A DNA stretch of 64,000 nt, taken from the NCBI GenBank assembly GCA_009914755.4, contig CP086569.2:12672001-12736000 (forward strand). Reading direction: 5' to 3'. The notes beneath the pieces are model-generated. The model had not been told where the DNA came from. It made no database searches and saw only the letters and a list, made by a program, of their open reading frames with translations. Of the stretch, positions 5,871 through 24,930 are shown piece by piece (positions within the stretch are counted from its first letter, which is position 1; each line of letters opens with the position of its first letter). Made by a program: the position numbers and the translations under genes. Source of the stretch: the human T2T-CHM13v2.0 reference genome, Homo sapiens.

Positions 5871-6209
<339 letters not shown>

Positions 6210-12433: not shown

Positions 12434-12805
<372 letters not shown>

Positions 12806-12989
12806 ATAGTGAGTTAAAAAGCAGATTAGACACAGCCAAACAGATAATTTTTACACCTCAAAAATGAAAGATCAGTAGTCTATCCAGATAATAGAACAGG
12901 GAAAAAAAGATATAGAATGCAGAAAGGAGGAATAGCAGTAAGAATTTTTATATATTGCAGAGGGGAGCAGAACTTGGTACAGTCAATTT

Positions 12990-13329
<340 letters not shown>

Positions 13330-14149
13330 TAGATTTGGTATATATCTTTGAAAATAAGTATCAAGTATCACTCATATTCTGCATTTTCTTTTGTCAGCAT
13401 GATCTATCAAAAACTGAGAGGCATATTATCTACCACAACTATTGTGCTACTACCAATTTTTACTTATGTTACAAAGATACTCACTGGCATTTTATACTTC
13501 AAAACTCTGCTATTTGATTTGTAAAATGTCATTATTTTAAAAGCCTCATTGAGGGCTGAACCCCTGATTTTCAATAGCCCTCTTGACTATTTCATATTCT
13601 TACTTAGTATTTTAACTGGTGAAGTTTTCGTCATCATTTCCTTTTGAAGTTTTGAGTTACTTTATTTTAGCTGTTCCTCCTTTAGATGGCATCTTGCTAG
13701 ATGTCTGTTTTTAAGCTCATTCTGAGGAATTTGTTTTCAATAGGCGAGTTCACTCCCTTCTACTGTTAAATCAGTTTAGTGTTGTCATTCATTTCATCTT
13801 GTATATTTGTAATGACTGTTTTTTAGTTTTTTTTTTTACATTATTCCATTTTTCTTTGCTTTTTCTTTAGGATTTTGATAGTTTTATAAGCTGTTGGGTT
13901 CTCTGTGTGCTTGGCTTTCTAAATTTAAGTTTTATGTCTGAAGTTGCATTACTCAGTACCTCAACTTCTGACATAGGAGGAAAAGCAAAGAAATAACACA
14001 AAATTGAGGGGAGTGGTTTTCTTTGGGAGTATGCAGTAGGGTGGCATAGAGTGGAACACATAGGTAAATGCAAATTATAGATATTTGTTCAATACCCTAA
14101 GTTTGGGTGGTGAGCTCTAGGCATTGATTATACTCATGCTTCCTTTTTT

Positions 14150-14478
<329 letters not shown>

Positions 14479-15959
14479 TAAACTTACATACATTTCATTT
14501 ATATTCTCATGTATATGCCAAATATTATTTTAAAGAATGAAAATATAATTGTCAAATTCATAAGTATTGACTTCTTCCAAAGCTTTTAATGTTTTTGTTC
14601 CTATCAGCACTCTCTTCTCTATCTCAGCGTACCAGTTTTTCCTGTTATACTCTTGACTTCTTACCCTGCCTGTTTTGGGTAAACCACTATTTTGATAATG
14701 TAGCTTTTAGTAAAAGACTATCAAAAACAAAATGACATGCACGCAATGATTTCAACAATCCTAAACAAGCAAAATCTTATAAAGCATGTAAACAAGGACT
14801 ACAGAATAAGATACAAAATGAAAACATTTTATGTTAGTGTTGTGAGATTATGTATTACAATTTTTCCCTGGAATTGTTTTTTGCTACCTCATCATTTAAA
14901 TTAAAATGTCAACAAGAAACATTAACTATAGCTGTAAAGCCTACTTACCTGTGCCATGATGAAAATATCACACTACAAAATTTTTTGTATTTGTATATTA
15001 TGTTATATTCAAAAGTGTTTTAGATTTTCAAAAGAAAGTTAGAAACAGTATCTTTAGATGAATGGTTTTGGCAGATTATGAAAGCCTAAAATTGTTGGCA
15101 AACTTGAACCTCAAAAAAGTAATTTGATGCTAATTAGCTATTTAAACATGCAGAAGATAACTGACGTGAGAGAAAGGAATGAAAATTCAGACTTATCTGA
15201 ATAGTAACAACACACAGGAAAACAGAATAATTTAGAGCTGGGGAATTAAAATAGTCCTCGTCTTCTCACAGAACAAAAGGAAAAAATACTCTGAAGTCTT
15301 TGTTGCAATGGTGTGGAAAATTTATGTTTGAAAAAGCTGCATGTTTGAAAAATTGCATTTTTAAAATTAGTTCAGATTTTAGCAATTAACTTCAAACTAG
15401 CATAAAAGTGTTCCTACATGGAGCAGATTCAATTCGAGGCTAAAGGAAAAGCACCTGACATTTTAGTTAGCCTATGCAGTCTGTCATGGATAAACCTGTA
15501 AGTGACTTTACGATTTAGGATTTCTGAGGTGTGAAAAACAGCTCTGGACCTCAGAGTCAAAGGTTGAATCAGAGCTGAAAGCGGACTTTGCCGATCAAAC
15601 CTCCGTCAGCAACAGCAAATGTTACACAGACGTTGAGACTATTAGGAGAGCTGAGTGCTTGTGACTGACACTATTTTTATCTGAACCCCCTCTCCAAATA
15701 CCAGTGGGTCCCTGGGGTTGCCAAAATAACTTAAATGCTCTTTATAAGAAAAAGCTTAGGTCATTTTTGTTAATGTGTTCAACTTGCCAGATTCTTTGAA
15801 AGCACCGATTCTTGTCTTCAGTACCATAATGAAGAATCACTTCTAAACATTTCTAAATAACAATCATCATGTTACTACATCCAAAAAGTTGTTTAAAGCA
15901 TGTACTTCAGAATAATCGTATTTAAATTCTTCCTTTGACTTCATGTCCCAGGGCACTTG

Positions 15960-17478
15960 GAAATGACAGCTGCCGTGAGACATGGAATTGGAGGAGTTTC
16001 TGGGAGAATTAGAGGGTAGGGGTTTGTACTCTGGCAGTTTCTGGGTATCATTTCATCTCTCACCATCACCAAGGAGCGGGAGTAACCCATGGCAGCCTGC
16101 TCTGAGAAGACACCATGCAGCGTCTTCATGTCTTGGACCGCAGTGGGAGATGTGGGCTTGTGAGTCCCCTCTGCCCAGTTCACCAAAGATCAGGGACTGG
16201 CCCCAGATGATCTGCAGCCACCATGATGCTCTTCCCATGAGCCAGGCTCCACATTCTCCAGCCACGGATGTTCAGCACTGCTTTCAGGTACATGATAGAC
16301 TCATGGGAAGTGTTGGTGGCCTCCCAGAAAAACACGTCACCCTCTTCACTGACAGCAAAGGACCAGGCATAACCAGCATAGATCTGGGGACCCCATTCCA
16401 GGAAAGCCAAACCGCTTGTGGGAGGTGGACCATCTCGTTTTTCTGCTCCACATGGTCCAGCCAGCAATAGCCACCCCGTGTCAGAAGAAGATGTGCTTCT
16501 GGGAGTCCAGGACCAGCATGTGGTTAGCTCTACAGGCCACATCTGCACAACCACGTGTGGTACTGGCAAAATCTGCTAATCTTTCTTCCTTCTCCATGAA
16601 GACAGCCACTTGCCTGGGCATCAGCTCCCAGCTGGACTCTATCCACAGCAGTGGGGACATGAACTTCTCATCATGAGTTGTATACCAGGTGACCATATTC
16701 AGGGCTCCCAAAGGAATAAAGTTTGGGTTTTTGTTTTTTGTTTTTTGTTTTGGTTTTAGTTTTGGTTTTTGCAGTCCATCATCCCACTGAATTCAGTCCC
16801 ATGGACCATTTTGGTGAATGGCTGGCCTTGTATACCTTCTGCGCAGGGCTAGGAACTGCATCTGTCTGACGACCAAGCCCCACCTTCTGCATCTTGTTCT
16901 TTCCAAAGGCAAATGCAGTGCCCACTTCCAGCAACACTGGGTTGTGGCTCCACCCATAGGCTGCTGACACAGTAACCCCAGGACTGGGACCCTTTATCAG
17001 TTTGGGTGCTTCAGCTTTCTTGGTGTCACCATGTTTCAGCTGCCCCTTTTCATTTCAACTCCAACTCCACAGATTCCCTTCTGTGGTGATAAGTGGACTG
17101 TAGGAAGCATATGTACCCAAAACCACTGCCTGCACCTGGACTCCCAGCAGGCATCCACTTCTATGGGGCACCTACAAATTCTGACTGGGGATCATGGTAA
17201 GCATCCTGTTATGTAAGTACTTATTTAACCAATCAAGCCCCAGCCAGTTGCTCTAAAAATCAAGGCTGCCATTTGCACTTAGAACCTTCATCTTTGCTGC
17301 ACTCCTTGGTGTGTTTGGCTCCGTGATGACGACAGCCACACCTCCCACCTTGTTGGCCACCTGGTCTGCCATGCTGGGTGCTTGCCTCTGCAGGGAGCAC
17401 CTCAAGTTCCAAGCTTTCCTTCTCATGCAACTGTTTGATGCTGCTGCTGCTGCTGCAGTACTTGGTCCTTGCATTGTT
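15960..17478 (-). pseudogene. Processed pseudogene derived from RCC2 (TD-60, an RCC1-repeat protein). It is 5'-truncated and has multiple frameshifts
   Basis: Minus-strand translations, in several different frames, match the human RCC2 protein in order over roughly residues 60-522. AVVITEPNT...GSKCKWQP matches AAVVITEPEHTKERVKLEGSKCKGQ. SLIFRATGWGLIG matches LLIFGATNWDLIG. AFAFGKNKMQKVGLGRQTDAVPSPAQKVY matches FAFGENKMGQLGLGNQTDAVPSPAQIMY. LMPRQVAVFMEKEERL...ADVACRANHMLVLDSQKHIFFWE matches LVPRRVAIFIEKTKDG...RDVACGANHTLVLDSQKRVFSWG. IYAGYAWSFAVSEEGDVFFWEATNTSHESIMYLKAV...GKSIMVAADH matches IYAGYTCSFAVSEVGGLFFWGATNTSRESTMYPKAV...GKSSIIVAADE. FGELGRGD matches FGELGYGD. TAVQDMKTLHGVFSEQAAMGYSRSLVMVRDE...LPETPPIP matches TAAQEVKTLDGIFSEQVAMGYSHSLVIARDE...LPEYNPRTL. 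The similarity is contiguous with no introns, so it is a retrocopy. At least 4 frame changes, and a microsatellite insertion, disable it. Confidence 0.85.
16722..16790. repeat. (TTTTG)n/(GTTTT)n microsatellite inserted within the RCC2 pseudogene
   Basis: gtttttgttttttgttttttgttttggttttagttttggttttt interrupts the RCC2-homologous reading frames. Confidence 0.85.
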
Positions 17479-19310
17479 AATAATCACCTCCCTTGCCACC
17501 AAAGGGTTTATAATGCTTGCAATAATACACAGCTGTGATGTTACTGGCACAAAAACAGACACATGGACCAATGGAACAAAATATAGAACCCAGAAATAAA
17601 GATGCACACCTACAGCCAACTAATTTTTACAAAGTCAAAAAAAAGGGAATGTGGAAAGTACTTCCTATTCAATAAATAGTGCTGGGATAGCAGGCTAGTC
17701 ATATGCAGAAGAATGAAACTGGATCCTTACCTGTCACCATATACAAAAATTAACTCAAGATGAATTAAAAATTTAAATGTACAACCTCAAACTATAAGAA
17801 TCCTAGAAGAAAACCTAGGAAATGCCATTCTGGAAAGAATTTATGATGAAGTCATCAAAAGCAATTGCAAAAAAATAAAATTGACAAGTGGGACCTAACT
17901 AAACTAAAGAGCTTCTCCTCAGCAAAAGAACCTATCAACGGAGTAAACATGCAACCTGCAGAATGGGAGAAAATATTCACAAACTACACATCTGACAAAA
18001 GTCTAACATCCAAAAATCTTTAAGGAACTTAATCAATTGAACAAGCAAAAAACAATTCCATTAAAAACTGAACAAAAGACATGAACAGACACTTTTCAAA
18101 ATAAGACATACAAGTGGCCAACAAACATATGAAAAAATGCTCCACATCACGAATCACCAGGGAAATGCAAATCAAAACCACAATGAGATACTACCTTATG
18201 CCAGTCAGAATGGCTATTATTTAAAAGTTAAAAAACCACAGATGTGGGCATGGCTGCAGAGAAAAATGAGTGCTTATACACTGTTGGTGGGAATGTAAAT
18301 TAATTCAGCCACTGTGAAAAGCAGTTTGGAGATTTCTCAAAGGACTTAGAACTACCACTCAACCCAGCAATCCCATTACTGGGTATATACCCACAGGAAA
18401 AGAAATCATTCTCTCAAAAAAGCACACACATGCGCATGTCCATCATGGCACCATTGGCAATAGCAAAGACATGGAATCAATCTAGATACCCATCAATGAC
18501 AGATTGGAAAAAGAAAATATGGTACATATACACTCATATAGTTTGGATATTTGTCCCCACTCAAATCTTATGTTGAAATGTAATCCCGAATGTTGGGGGT
18601 AGGGCCTGGTTGGAGATATTTGGGTCATGGTGGTGGATCCCTTATGGCTTGGTGTTGTCCTTGCAACAGCAAGTGAGTTCTCATGAGATATGGTTGTCAA
18701 GTGTGGGGCACATCACCCACTCTCTTTCTTGCTCCTGCATTCACCAAGTGAAGTGCCTGCTCCTGCTGCACCTTCTGCCATGAGTAAAAGTGCCCTTAGG
18801 CCTCCTCAGAAGCCTAGGAGATGCCAGTGCCATGCTTATACTGTTTGCAGAACCATAAGCCAATTAAACTTCTTTTCTGAATAAATTACCCAGTTTCAGG
18901 TAATTCTTTATAGCAATTCAAGAACGGCCTAACACCTATACCATAGAATACTATGCAGCCATAAAAAGAATGAAATCATAACCTCTGCAGCAACATGGAT
19001 GCAGCCTGGAGGCCATTATCCTAAGCAAACAAGAACAGATGGAAGAATAGAAAACCTCATACCTCATGTTCTCATTTATAAGCGGGAGCTTAATATTGGG
19101 TACTCATTGACATGAAGATGGCAACAATAGACACTGGGGTCTGCTAGAGCAGGGAGGAAAAGGGAGGAGGGCAAAAGTCAAAAAAACAACTATTGGGTAC
19201 TATGCTCAGTACCTGGGTAACAGGATCTTTCATACCTCAAACCTTAGCATTATGAAATATACTCAAGTAACAAACCCACACATGTAACCACTGAATCTAA
19301 AATAAAAGTT
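17475..19310 (+). mobile_element. LINE-1 (older L1PB/L1M-like) 3' half: ORF2 C-terminal region plus 3' UTR, sense. It is 5'-truncated and carries a nested MaLR LTR
   Basis: gttactggcacaaaaacagacacatggaccaatggaacaaaatatagaacccagaaataaa...aatagtgctgggatagcaggctagtcatatgcagaagaatgaaactggatcc...gaaatgcaaatcaaaaccacaatgagatactacc...ccactgtgaaaagcagtttggagatttctcaaag...atggtacatatacactc and the L1 3' UTR-like end ...caaacccacacatgtaaccactgaatctaaaataaaag. Confidence 0.88.
18535..18905 (+). mobile_element. MaLR LTR (THE1/MST family) nested inside the L1
   Basis: atttgtccccactcaaatcttatgttgaaatgtaatcccgaatgttgggggtagggcctgg...ccttctgccatgagtaaaagtgcccttaggcctcctcagaagc...tgcagaaccataagccaattaaacttcttttctgaataaattacccagtttcaggtaattctttatagcaa matches the THE1/MST LTR consensus. 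Confidence 0.8.
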
Positions 19311-19620
<310 letters not shown>

Positions 19621-20519
19621 GTTGAAGAAAATATTGTAGGACAAAATAATATAATACACAGCTCTAGTCTACAGATGAATTTCTCATCGGGTGCAGTTGT
19701 AGTAGTCTAAAAACCCTAATTTGGGGCAATCTGTCATGGGAGAAAGTGAAAGTAGTTTATATTAATAAAAGAAGCTATAAGCTACCTCCCACATGTTCTG
19801 CAGACCATGGAATTGTATGAAAATCCTTTAAAAGCAACATAAGTATATCCAGATATAGTTCGATGAGGCAGTAAGACCACTGCCACCAATTATTTAAGGA
19901 AAGCCTGTCTGGTGACAGTCATGCCAAGACCCTGAATCCACTTGAATGGTGGAAGTGGACACATAGGCTTAGGGAGTTCAAGTACTTTATGAGTAACATT
20001 CTCTTATCATACATAGAATGCAAAATGATGTATTTTTTTTTCTTTTAAAAAAGCAAAAGATGACTGAAGCTGCATTGTTGTTGGACTTTCTGAGGTCTTA
20101 TTTTATAAATGATTCAACTTGTCCTGTATGCTTTGAAAGTGCTTTTTTCTCTTAATGCTTAACTACAATATTTACTCATAGTTTACTTACCAACCCTACA
20201 AAAGAGGTAGTTAACTTGGCTGCTTCCATTTCCTGCCTGCCTGGCTGCTGAACTTCCTGGGACCAGAGAGGCCATGCCATTGCCCAAGTTTGGCTATGGG
20301 GGGCTCCCCTGACTTCCTGCCAAGCTGGCCTGGAGTCCTTGAGGCATGGAGATGCCTGCAACAATGAGGTGGCCCCAGACTCATCCCATGTGCTCCTGCT
20401 GGCCATGGCACAATGATGGCCTCCACAGGACCCCTGCCACTAGCCCTCAATCTACTTCTTTGCTGTGGGAGCTAACAAAGTTGAAATGGCTTCTCCTTCT
20501 GAGCCAAGTGCATTGCCCA

Positions 20520-21060
20520 TTTAAATTTTTTAATTGTTGAATAGTATTCTTATATAGATACACTTTTCTTTTTTTCTTTTGCTAGTTGATGAGTATTTGG
20601 GTTGTTTCCACTTTGGGTTACTATGGATGGTGCTGCTATGAGCTTTCACATGAGTCTTTGAGTGGACATAGGTTTCCATTTATTCTGGGTACCTATCTGG
20701 GAGTGAAGCTGCTGAGTCATATGGTAATTCTACATATGGCACTCTGAGAAACTACCAAATTGCTTAACAAAGTGGCTGCATTCATTTGCATTTCTGTAGG
20801 CAATGTCTGGGGGGTCCCTATTCTCCCCCTCCTTGTCATCACTTGTTATTTTCTATTGTTTGATTACAGCCACTCTAGTGAGTATGAAGTTGTATTGCAT
20901 TGTGATGCCAGTATGGATGTCTGTATTGACTAATGATATTGTACATATTGGAATAGTATATTTTCCTCGGAGAAATGCTATTGAAATCCACTTTACATTT
21001 TAAATAGTTTATCTTTTGTTAATGAGTACTATGAAATGTTTTCGTCTGAATAGTTCATGA
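20520..21060 (+). mobile_element. LINE-1 fragment (ORF2 C-terminal region, L1M-like), sense
   Basis: ttgttgaatagtattcttatatagatacac...gttgatgagtatttgggttgtttccactttgggttactatggatggtgctgctatgagctttcacatg...tatggtaattctacatatggcactctgagaaactaccaaattgcttaacaaagtggctgcattcatttgcatttc parallels the L1 ORF2 3' region. Confidence 0.75.
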
Positions 21061-23859: not shown

Positions 23860-24930
23860 ACGAGCAGGTCGAAGTGTCCTTCAACCTAGGCGGCCTCTGT
23901 GCAGGTCGGTTGGCCTGGATGGGGCCTGAAGCATCACGTGCATATTGCTTTTGTGCAGCTGGAGCCTCTGGAGCCCATTGAGGTAGAGGCAGACAGTGAG
24001 GAGGCCTGCAGCCTGGAAGACTTTCCAGGGGTGGTGTTTGAGGGCTCCAATTCCATTAAATTCTGTGCGGTCATTTCTGTGTTTAGAAAGGCCAGTGGGA
24101 AGTGACTGATTTTGGTAACTCATTGTCCTTTTCCAGCTCCTGCTTAATGTCTAGAGACACAGGCAATTCCAGTGCTGGCTCTGGTACATGCTGCCTGCTC
24201 CGGAGCCAGAGTGACTTGCAGCCCTGGGCCTCCCACACATCGATCCAGCACCACGGCCAGCTCCAGAGCCACAGTGCTCCTGCCCCGGTCCTGGGACTGC
24301 GAAGAACCAGCCCGGCGAGGCGTTGCCTGACATCGTGGTGTCTGTTGCCCCCACTCGCCTCAGCACTGGAGCTGGAAGAGGCTCCCCAGGAGAGGCGGCG
24401 GCCAGTGGGGCTCCGGCCAGCAGGCCTCGCGCCGCTCTCGGTCCTGGGCGAAGGGAGAGCCGCGGAGGCGGAGAGCAGGGCTGGCGGGCCGGCTCCTGGG
24501 CCTTGCTGAAGAGCTTCCCGCGTGCCAGCCTCGGCCCCAGCACGACCTGAACAACGTCTGTTTCTCGCAAGCCGCCACCCGGCCTATGGGCGCGAACTCC
24601 ACCAGCTCGCCCCCTCCACGTCCCCGCCTGGCCTGCCGCTGATGGGGGCGGACGGGGCGGAATTCCAGCAACTCCTCCTCCTGCTCCAGGACGTGGTCTC
24701 CTCCTCCGGCGACTGGGACCTGCCCTTAGCTGAGCATCTGAGCTGGGGGCCTCTGAGGTGCTGCCCAGGACGGGCTCTTCCTGGTTGGCAGGCAGGTGGG
24801 AATGTATTTTCCAAAGGGCACAGGCCCAGGCAGGACCTAGCAGCTGTACCTTGGGGTCACCATTGGCCCCATCCTGCCCAATGACTTATTTATATTGTTA
24901 TTACTTCAAATTTCTATAACTTTTAAATAA
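23860..24930. other. Orphan CpG-rich block, about 60-70% GC, with a CpG-island-like core at about 24280-24740. A canonical AATAAA lies at about 24925
   Basis: Dense CpG, for example ccggcgaggcgttgcc, ggcggcggccagtggggctccggccagcaggcctcgcgccgctctcgg, gagccgcggaggcggagag, gggcgcgaactccaccagctcgcc, gcggacggggcggaattc, ctccggcgactgg. The rest of this AT-rich, repeat-rich window has lost its CpGs. All six frames give only Pro/Ala/Gly/Arg/Ser-rich low-complexity ORFs with no protein I recognise. ttttaaataaagaatttggcttttt lies at the 3' edge. Confidence 0.6.

What the first reader, a model, noticed from the sequence alone, without database searches (positions are those of the whole stretch)
15960..17478. 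Retrocopy of RCC2 (TD-60), disabled by frameshifts, on the minus strand
Reading the minus strand across about 1.5 kb gives, in several successive frames, a collinear intronless match to the RCC2 protein from about residue 60 to the C-terminus, at roughly 60-70% amino-acid identity. Matched landmarks are AVVITEP...GSKCK, LIFGATNWDLIG, FAFGENKMGQLGLGNQTDAVPSPAQ, DVACGANHTLVLDSQK, IYAGY..SFAVSE...FFWGATNTSRES..Y.KAV, FGELGYGD and TLDGIFSEQVAMGYS.SLV..RDE. The RCC1-repeat signature (hydrophobic-WG-N-x-GQLG-G) recurs throughout. The protein match requires at least four frame changes. A (TTTTG)n microsatellite at 16722-16790 sits in the middle of it. The first roughly 60 codons and the 5' UTR are missing. 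This is the only protein-coding-derived sequence I can identify in the window. Its age and degree of decay indicate an old retrocopy rather than a recent one, so it could mislead RNA-seq or variant mapping for RCC2.
Basis: partly seen in the sequence, partly recalled or inferred. Interest (0 to 1): 0.55.

Follow-up and report, generated by a model that had tools for sequence, protein, structure and literature searches.

The report
Old, broken RCC2 processed pseudogene

Summary
Confirmed. The minus strand of window 15921-17475 is a collinear, intron-less copy of RCC2 codons ~36-522 plus ~88 nt of 3'UTR. All 11 exon junctions of the parent gene (proboscis-monkey RCC2 locus L001, introns 363-8830 nt) are fused at adjacent bases. 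No intron sequence occurs anywhere in the window. Identity is 78% at nucleotide level and 63% at protein level. The copy carries 3 in-frame stops, ~15 net frame changes (26 frameshifting indels) and a microsatellite inside exon 6. A search of 5.8 billion proteins returns only RCC2 (best E 5e-157).

Two corrections apply. First, the 5' end is not missing. Codons ~14-40, and probably the ATG at 20347-20345, lie at 20215-20347, separated from the body by a ~2.74 kb block flanked by a 16-nt direct duplication of RCC2-derived sequence. The block holds a 5'-truncated L1, a nested repeat, an Alu and ~400 nt of unidentified DNA. Second, 3'UTR nt ~86-264 is present in inverted orientation at 20044-20217, starting exactly where the main body stops. 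I could not resolve how it got there.

Divergence implies an age of roughly 80-110+ Myr. Human RCC2P3, RCC2P5, RCC2P6 and RCC2P8 are already annotated. Ordinary; low interest.

The parts
15921..17475 (-). Piece B, the main body of the retrocopy: RCC2 codons ~36-522 (exons 1-12 fused), the stop-codon region and the first ~88 nt of the 3'UTR. 17475-17461 is one copy of the 16-nt duplication.
   Evidence: all 11 junctions at adjacent bases; per-exon identity 72-83%; 3'UTR part 85%
16721..16771 (.). Imperfect (GTTTTT)n/(GTTTTGGTTTTT)n microsatellite inserted within exon 6, between parent L001 23608 and 23612
   Evidence: 13-codon insertion
20215..20347 (-). Piece A, the displaced 5' part of the retrocopy. 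Parent exon-1 nt 41-119 (codons ~14-40) is aligned at 20295-20215 (72% identity). An exact CCATGCC sits at 20349-20343 (putative ATG at 20347-20345). 20230-20215 is the second copy of the 16-nt duplication.
   Evidence: The extension from 20296 to the ATG is by eye only. The 5'UTR beyond it is not supported.
20044..20217 (+). Piece C: RCC2 3'UTR nt ~86-264 in inverted orientation relative to A and B. It abuts A and begins at the same parent position where B ends.
   Evidence: 74% over 188 nt, E 2e-28; single copy in the window
17476..20043 (+). Later-inserted block. It contains a 5'-truncated L1 (ORF2 3' part and 3' end, sense on the + strand, 17476-18545 and 18936-~19312), a nested interspersed repeat (18546-18935), an AluS-like element with A-tail (~19316-19625), a decayed A-rich tract, unidentified sequence Y (~19660-20030) and a T-run (20031-20043).
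   Evidence: Family names are from my own reading, not from a repeat database.
20519..20527 (-). AATTTAAAT, left copy of a 9-nt direct repeat bounding the whole RCC2-derived region (candidate target-site duplication). A TTTT/AA L1-endonuclease-type site lies next to it on the + strand.
   Evidence: read directly from the sequence
15920..15928 (-). AATTTAAAT, right copy of the 9-nt repeat. It also coincides with gaatttaaa of the parent 3'UTR (L001 35320-35328), so it may be microhomology rather than a pure TSD.

Best explanation
This is a non-functional processed pseudogene (retrocopy) of RCC2 in a primate genome. A spliced RCC2 mRNA was reverse-transcribed and integrated, presumably by LINE-1 machinery, into an older L1 element roughly 80-110 or more million years ago. 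It has decayed neutrally since then. Well after it formed, a ~2.74 kb block headed by a 5'-truncated L1 was inserted at codons 36-40, producing a 16-nt target-site duplication. That insertion split the copy into a short 5' piece (A) and the main body (B). An Alu and another repeat later landed inside the L1. The main body has no poly(A) tail and stops ~88 nt into the 3'UTR at an AATTTAAA motif shared with the flanking target. The next ~180 nt of UTR (C) lie inverted at the far end of the inserted block and end ~45 nt after the parent's proximal ATTAAA signal. Shown: RCC2 origin, intronlessness, disablement, the split, the 16-nt duplication, the inverted UTR piece. Inferred: L1-mediated origin, order of events, age. 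Unresolved: how piece C reached its present place.
For: RCC2 identity: all 120 listed hits are RCC2, best E 5e-157; RCC1-repeat Pfam families. Intronless: 12 parent exons with GT-AG introns of 363-8830 nt; all 11 junctions fused in the window; no intron or flank match anywhere in the window. Disabled: 3 stops, 26 frameshifting indels, 14- and 15-17-nt deletions, microsatellite; longest RCC2-frame ORF is 129 aa. Neutral decay and age: non-CpG codon positions 1+2 K2P 0.171; CpG sites 50% changed; about equally distant, ~60%, from RCC2 of all placental orders. Primate host: (10 Alu 5' ends). Split by a later insertion: (A and B rejoin into one continuous alignment). One search shows the two 16-mer copies share five CpG decays in the same direction plus a 1-nt deletion relative to the parent, at non-synonymous sites where the parent state is conserved. 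The duplication therefore post-dates much of the decay; matching direction alone has p ~0.03. Inverted UTR piece. Known class: (RCC2P3, P5, P6, P8 annotated in human).
Against: No poly(A) tail is visible at either candidate 3' end. The 9-nt bounding repeat is confounded with RCC2's own UTR sequence and is nearly palindromic. That the right flank continues the older L1 is my reading only; alignment to the inner L1 was not better than shuffles, and PDB and Pfam searches gave nothing. The 170 nt between the ATG and the left repeat could not be matched to the parent's upstream region. The insertion with the 16-nt duplication ends in RCC2 UTR sequence rather than an A-tail, which is not a standard L1 insertion. 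The parent used is a monkey orthologue, not the host's own RCC2, which slightly inflates divergence.
Confidence: 0.93

Rival explanations
1. The split and the inverted UTR piece arose in the original retrotransposition event. This would be a twin-priming or template-switching variant. One primer annealed internally at the UTR AAUUUAAA motif and copied the mRNA to its 5' end (B+A). The dangling 3' tail of the same short-UTR mRNA (nt ~86-264, up to the proximal poly(A) site), and then L1 RNA, were copied during second-strand synthesis and inserted with a 16-nt slip-back.
For: B ends and C begins at the same parent position (35328 and 35323). There is an 8-9 nt microhomology between that site and the target repeat. 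C stops ~45 nt after the proximal ATTAAA, as expected for the poly(A)-primed arm of a short isoform. C and the L1 are both in cDNA sense on the same strand.
Against: The canonical twin-priming product would place C with an A-tail next to the right-hand target repeat, after A, and not between B and A. The two 16-mer copies share derived mutations, which indicates that time elapsed between retrocopy birth and the duplication. There is no A-tail after C. Sequence Y is unexplained.
Confidence: 0.15
2. The retrocopy originally had a contiguous A-B-C-poly(A) structure made from the short-UTR isoform. DNA-level rearrangement, possibly accompanying the L1 insertion, later deleted the poly(T)-C segment between the two TTTAAATT direct repeats and re-inserted C inverted at the L1 insertion site.
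For: This explains why C starts exactly where B ends, the loss of the A-tail, the 8-nt direct repeat at the B/flank junction, and a late origin of the 16-mer duplication.
Against: It needs an excision and inverted re-insertion for which there is no direct evidence. It does not explain Y or the T-run preceding C.
Confidence: 0.3
3. It is a DNA-level (segmental) duplicate or a still-functional RCC2 paralogue rather than a retrocopy.
For: None found.
Against: No intron sequence is present and all junctions are fused. There are 3 stops and 26 frameshifting indels. Codon positions 1+2 have diverged 15-17% although the parent protein is ~99% conserved among primates.
Confidence: 0.01

Closest known systems
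Annotated human RCC2 processed pseudogenes (RCC2P3, RCC2P5 on chr3, RCC2P6 at 11q12.3, RCC2P8 at 4q25)
   Same: An intron-less, disabled copy of RCC2 mRNA in a primate genome. This is the same parent gene and the same kind of object.
   Different: I could not determine which, if any, of the numbered loci this window is, because no primate genome search was available. This copy is additionally split by an L1/Alu block and carries an inverted UTR fragment.
LINE-1-mediated processed pseudogenes in general (target-primed reverse transcription in trans)
   Same: Spliced mRNA origin, insertion into AT-rich DNA next to a TTTT/AA site, a short direct repeat at both ends, and neutral decay.
   Different: There is no recognisable poly(A) tail. 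The 3' end lies at an internal A/T-rich UTR motif with microhomology to the target, which suggests internal priming or a later deletion.
Twin-priming 5' inversions of L1 and processed pseudogenes (Ostertag and Kazazian 2001; from my own knowledge, not read here)
   Same: Two segments of one RNA lie in opposite orientation. Their breakpoints are adjacent in RNA coordinates, and there is microhomology between the internal priming site and the target repeat.
   Different: The order of segments is not the canonical one. The non-inverted arm is not next to the target repeat, has no A-tail, and is separated from the other arm by an L1-containing block with its own 16-nt duplication.

Membership tests
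Processed pseudogene (retrocopy) of RCC2 | Sequence derives from RCC2 and not from another RCC1-repeat gene | tested here: met
   all 120 listed hits are RCC2, best E 5e-157; other RCC1-family proteins are far weaker; collinear over residues 38-519.
Processed pseudogene (retrocopy) of RCC2 | Introns absent, exon-exon junctions fused precisely | tested here: met
   11 of 11 junctions lie at adjacent window bases; no parent intron sequence in the window.
Processed pseudogene (retrocopy) of RCC2 | Reading frame disabled (pseudogene rather than retrogene) | tested here: met
   3 in-frame stops, 26 frameshifting indels, and a split by a 2.74 kb insertion; no long ORF.
Processed pseudogene (retrocopy) of RCC2 | 3' poly(A) tract | tested here: not met
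   no A-run follows B (15921) or C (20217). This is expected to be eroded or lost in a copy this old, and possibly removed by rearrangement.
Processed pseudogene (retrocopy) of RCC2 | Flanking target-site duplication | tested here: inconclusive
   A 9-nt AATTTAAAT occurs at 20527-20519 and 15928-15920, but the right copy is also RCC2 UTR sequence. Continuity of the flanking old L1 is not statistically shown.
Twin-priming inversion | Inverted arm adjacent to one TSD and sense arm with A-tail adjacent to the other, with breakpoints contiguous in the RNA | tested here: not met
   The breakpoints are contiguous (35328/35323). However, C lies between B and A, lacks an A-tail and is not next to the target repeat.
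Standard 5'-truncated L1 insertion (the block splitting the retrocopy) | 5'-truncated L1 ending in poly(A), flanked by a 7-20 bp TSD | tested here: inconclusive
   A 16-nt direct duplication and a 5'-truncated L1 with an A-rich tail are present. About 600 nt (Y, a T-run and RCC2 UTR piece C) lie between the L1 tail and the right duplication copy.

The most novel reading that the evidence does not exclude
The arrangement records an unusual single reverse-transcription event. In this reading, L1 reverse transcriptase primed internally on RCC2 mRNA by 8-nt microhomology. During second-strand synthesis it then switched to the free 3' tail of the same mRNA and on to L1 RNA before returning. The product would be a three-template chimeric, partly inverted retrocopy, a natural example of multi-step template switching beyond canonical twin priming.
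Probability: 0.1. Interest if true: 0.4.

Novelty: already known. Interest (0 to 1): 0.12.

Why it matters
Practical value only. Knowing that the copy is in three pieces, one of them inverted, prevents mis-annotation as a 5'-truncated copy or as two separate pseudogenes. The rearranged 3'UTR fragment is a small curiosity for people who study L1-mediated insertion mechanisms.

Tried and rejected
(1) Looking up the chimpanzee RCC2 isoform (P0007) failed because it is not on record. I used the Nasalis gene model instead.
(2) Rfam scan of the window found nothing.
(3) I tried to place the old-L1 flanks on L1 ORF2p coordinates.
(4) I joined the outer flanks and aligned them to the inner L1. The left flank aligns, but the right flank does no better than shuffles. 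That script also used a right-repeat coordinate that was off by 3. I corrected this afterwards, but the test was not rerun with the corrected flank.
(5) A CpG-decay-aware alignment of 20296-20530 to the parent's 2 kb upstream region was not significant.
(6) Y (19655-20035) matches nothing in the parent locus on either strand and has no other copy in the window.
(7) Simple single-inversion models and canonical twin priming in either orientation were worked through on paper. I rejected them because they do not reproduce the observed order B' - L1 block - C - A' with direct 16-nt repeats.
(8) I could not assign the copy to a numbered RCC2P locus.

Full report
OBSERVATION. The minus strand of the flagged interval reads as RCC2. 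One 129-aa ORF fragment hits the crystal-structure chain of human RCC2 (5GWN) at E=2.8e-18. My recalled human RCC2 sequence is identical to that chain over residues 88-522, and its first 87 residues equal the chimpanzee protein returned later, so it served as the reference. tblastn of RCC2 against the whole window gives significant hits only at 16020-17469, spread over three minus-strand frames. A frameshift-aware protein-to-DNA alignment that I wrote covers residues 38-519 over window 17469->16020. It has 461 codon pairs, of which 290 are identical (62.9%), with 15 frame changes, 3 in-frame stops and a 13-codon insertion that is the microsatellite. Tandem Repeats Finder places the microsatellite at 16721-16771.

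UNBIASED IDENTITY TEST. I searched the conceptual translation, not RCC2 itself, against 5.8 billion proteins. All 120 listed hits are RCC2 orthologues, with the best at E 5e-157. Placental mammals of all orders sit at about 60% identity. Pfam finds RCC1-repeat families. The window contains at least 10 Alu 5' ends, so the host is a primate.

INTRONLESSNESS. I fetched the proboscis-monkey RCC2 locus with its introns (L001). I rebuilt its 12 coding exons with GT-AG junctions, and the translation is 520/523 identical to human. Window DNA matches exons only, in order. In a nucleotide alignment to the spliced CDS, all 11 junctions fall between adjacent window bases: 17296|95, 17205|04, 17060|59, 16928|27, 16839|38, 16685|84, 16517|16, 16341|40, 16235|34, 16176|75 and 16097|96. 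The parent introns at these positions are 363-8830 nt long. Exon 10, which BLAST missed, is present with a 14-nt deletion. Comparing the whole parent locus with the whole window gives no single-copy intron or flank match. This is a retrocopy, not a segmental duplicate.

DECAY AND AGE. There are 1224 matches and 345 mismatches (78.0% identity) and 30 indel events, 26 of which are not multiples of three. K2P distance is 0.268 overall. It is 0.171 at non-CpG codon positions 1+2, where the parent is almost frozen, so this value mostly reflects decay of the copy itself. It is 0.333 at non-CpG third positions, and half of all CpG sites have changed. With neutral rates of 2.2e-9 to 1.0e-9 per site per year this gives 78-171 Myr. 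A plausible reading is 80-110 or more Myr, around or before the primate radiation. That fits the equal distance to RCC2 of all placental orders. The rates are from general knowledge, and the parent used is a monkey orthologue, so the date is rough.

THE 5' END IS NOT MISSING. Parent exon-1 positions 6041-6119 (codons ~14-40) match window 20295->20218 on the minus strand at 72% identity. An exact CCATGCC sits at about the expected distance, placing the putative ATG at 20347-20345. Removing 17461-20214 lets this piece (A) and the main body (B) align to the parent as one continuous block. The two edges carry a direct 16-nt duplication of RCC2-derived sequence: AATGGAAGCAGCCAAG at 20230-20215 and AATGCAAGGACCAAG at 17475-17461.

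Relative to the parent AAGCGCGAGCGGCCCGAG, both copies share five CpG decays in the same direction and a 1-nt deletion. These lie at non-synonymous sites of the conserved KRERPER motif, so the parent state is ancestral. Matching direction alone has a probability of about 0.03. The duplication therefore arose well after the retrocopy had begun to decay, which makes it the target-site duplication of a later insertion.

THE INSERTED BLOCK. Read on the plus strand, the block contains:
- a 5'-truncated L1 (ORF2 3' part, sense) at 17476-18545 and 18936-~19312;
- a nested interspersed repeat at 18546-18935, with a second copy at 43079-43458;
- an AluS-like element at ~19316-19625, flanked by AAAAGTTGA repeats in the L1 tail;
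- a decayed A-rich tract;
- ~370-400 nt of unidentified sequence Y;
- a T-run.
Family names come from my own reading, not from a repeat database.

THE INVERTED UTR PIECE. The main body follows the parent only ~88 nt past the stop codon, ending at window 15921 = L001 35328. The next part of the UTR, L001 35323-35509, matches window 20044-20217 on the plus strand (74% over 188 nt, E 2e-28). It is inverted relative to A and B, lies at the right end of the inserted block and directly abuts the 16-mer of A. It starts where B stops. It ends ~45 nt after the parent's proximal ATTAAA (UTR nt 216); the distal AATAAA is at nt 2309. Neither end has an A-tail.

OUTER BOUNDARIES. AATTTAAAT occurs at 20527-20519 and at 15928-15920 in minus-strand reading. 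On the plus strand the left copy is followed by TTTT/AA, a typical L1 endonuclease site. Outside the left copy lies an older minus-sense L1 ORF2 C-terminus, 61% identical to the inner L1. By eye the right flank continues that ORF, but this is not statistically supported. The right repeat copy also coincides with gaatttaaa of the RCC2 UTR. It may therefore be a target-site duplication, a priming microhomology or both. The 170 nt between the ATG and the left repeat could not be matched to the parent's upstream region, so the 5' limit is uncertain.

MECHANISM. The well-supported part is retroposition of a spliced RCC2 mRNA, long neutral decay, and later disruption by an L1-headed insertion followed by nested Alu and repeat insertions. 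The position of piece C is unresolved. I considered three models.
- Model a: C was originally contiguous with B. It was deleted between the two TTTAAATT repeats and re-inserted inverted during the L1 insertion.
- Model b: a single-event twin-priming or template-switch variant. The contiguous breakpoints, the microhomology and C ending at the proximal poly(A) site favour it. The shared mutations of the 16-mers and the non-canonical order argue against it.
- Model c: C and Y were carried in with the L1, like a 3' transduction or chimera. That leaves the RCC2-into-RCC2 coincidence and the matching breakpoint unexplained.
Orthologous loci in other mammals would settle this, but no tool here reaches primate genomes.

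COMPARISON AND VERDICT. Human RCC2 processed pseudogenes are already annotated: RCC2P3, RCC2P5 on chr3, RCC2P6 at 11q12.3 and RCC2P8 at 4q25. I could not tell which one this is. The object is an ordinary, already-known kind of sequence. Interest is low. The only mildly unusual aspect is the rearranged UTR fragment.

Noticed in passing
window 24200-24800: A small CpG island (GC ~0.70, CpG observed/expected 0.64-0.72), the only one in the 64 kb window. It may be a promoter or first exon of an unidentified gene or lncRNA. Weak low-complexity similarity to the RCC2 N-terminus here looks like chance.
   Followed up: partly
window 18546-18935 and 43079-43458: Two copies (63% identity) of an interspersed repeat that I could not name. 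One is nested inside the L1 that splits the retrocopy.
   Followed up: partly
window 19660-20030: About 370 nt of single-copy sequence (Y) of unknown origin between the L1/Alu tail and the inverted RCC2 UTR piece. It is bounded by an A-rich tract on the left and a T-run on the right, and matches nothing in the RCC2 locus or elsewhere in the window.
   Followed up: partly
window 12460-12820, 12994-13360, 14145-14465: Three Alu elements lie close together just beyond the retrocopy's 3' side. Together with seven other Alu 5' ends across the window, they show the primate origin.
   Followed up: no
L001 35398-35409 versus window ~20118: The parent 3'UTR has a 12-nt segment (GTTAACTACCTT) that is absent from the inverted UTR piece. 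A similar GTTAAC string occurs at both edges of the 2.74 kb inserted block (17476-17480 and 20210-20214). This is probably coincidence in AT-rich DNA.
   Followed up: no
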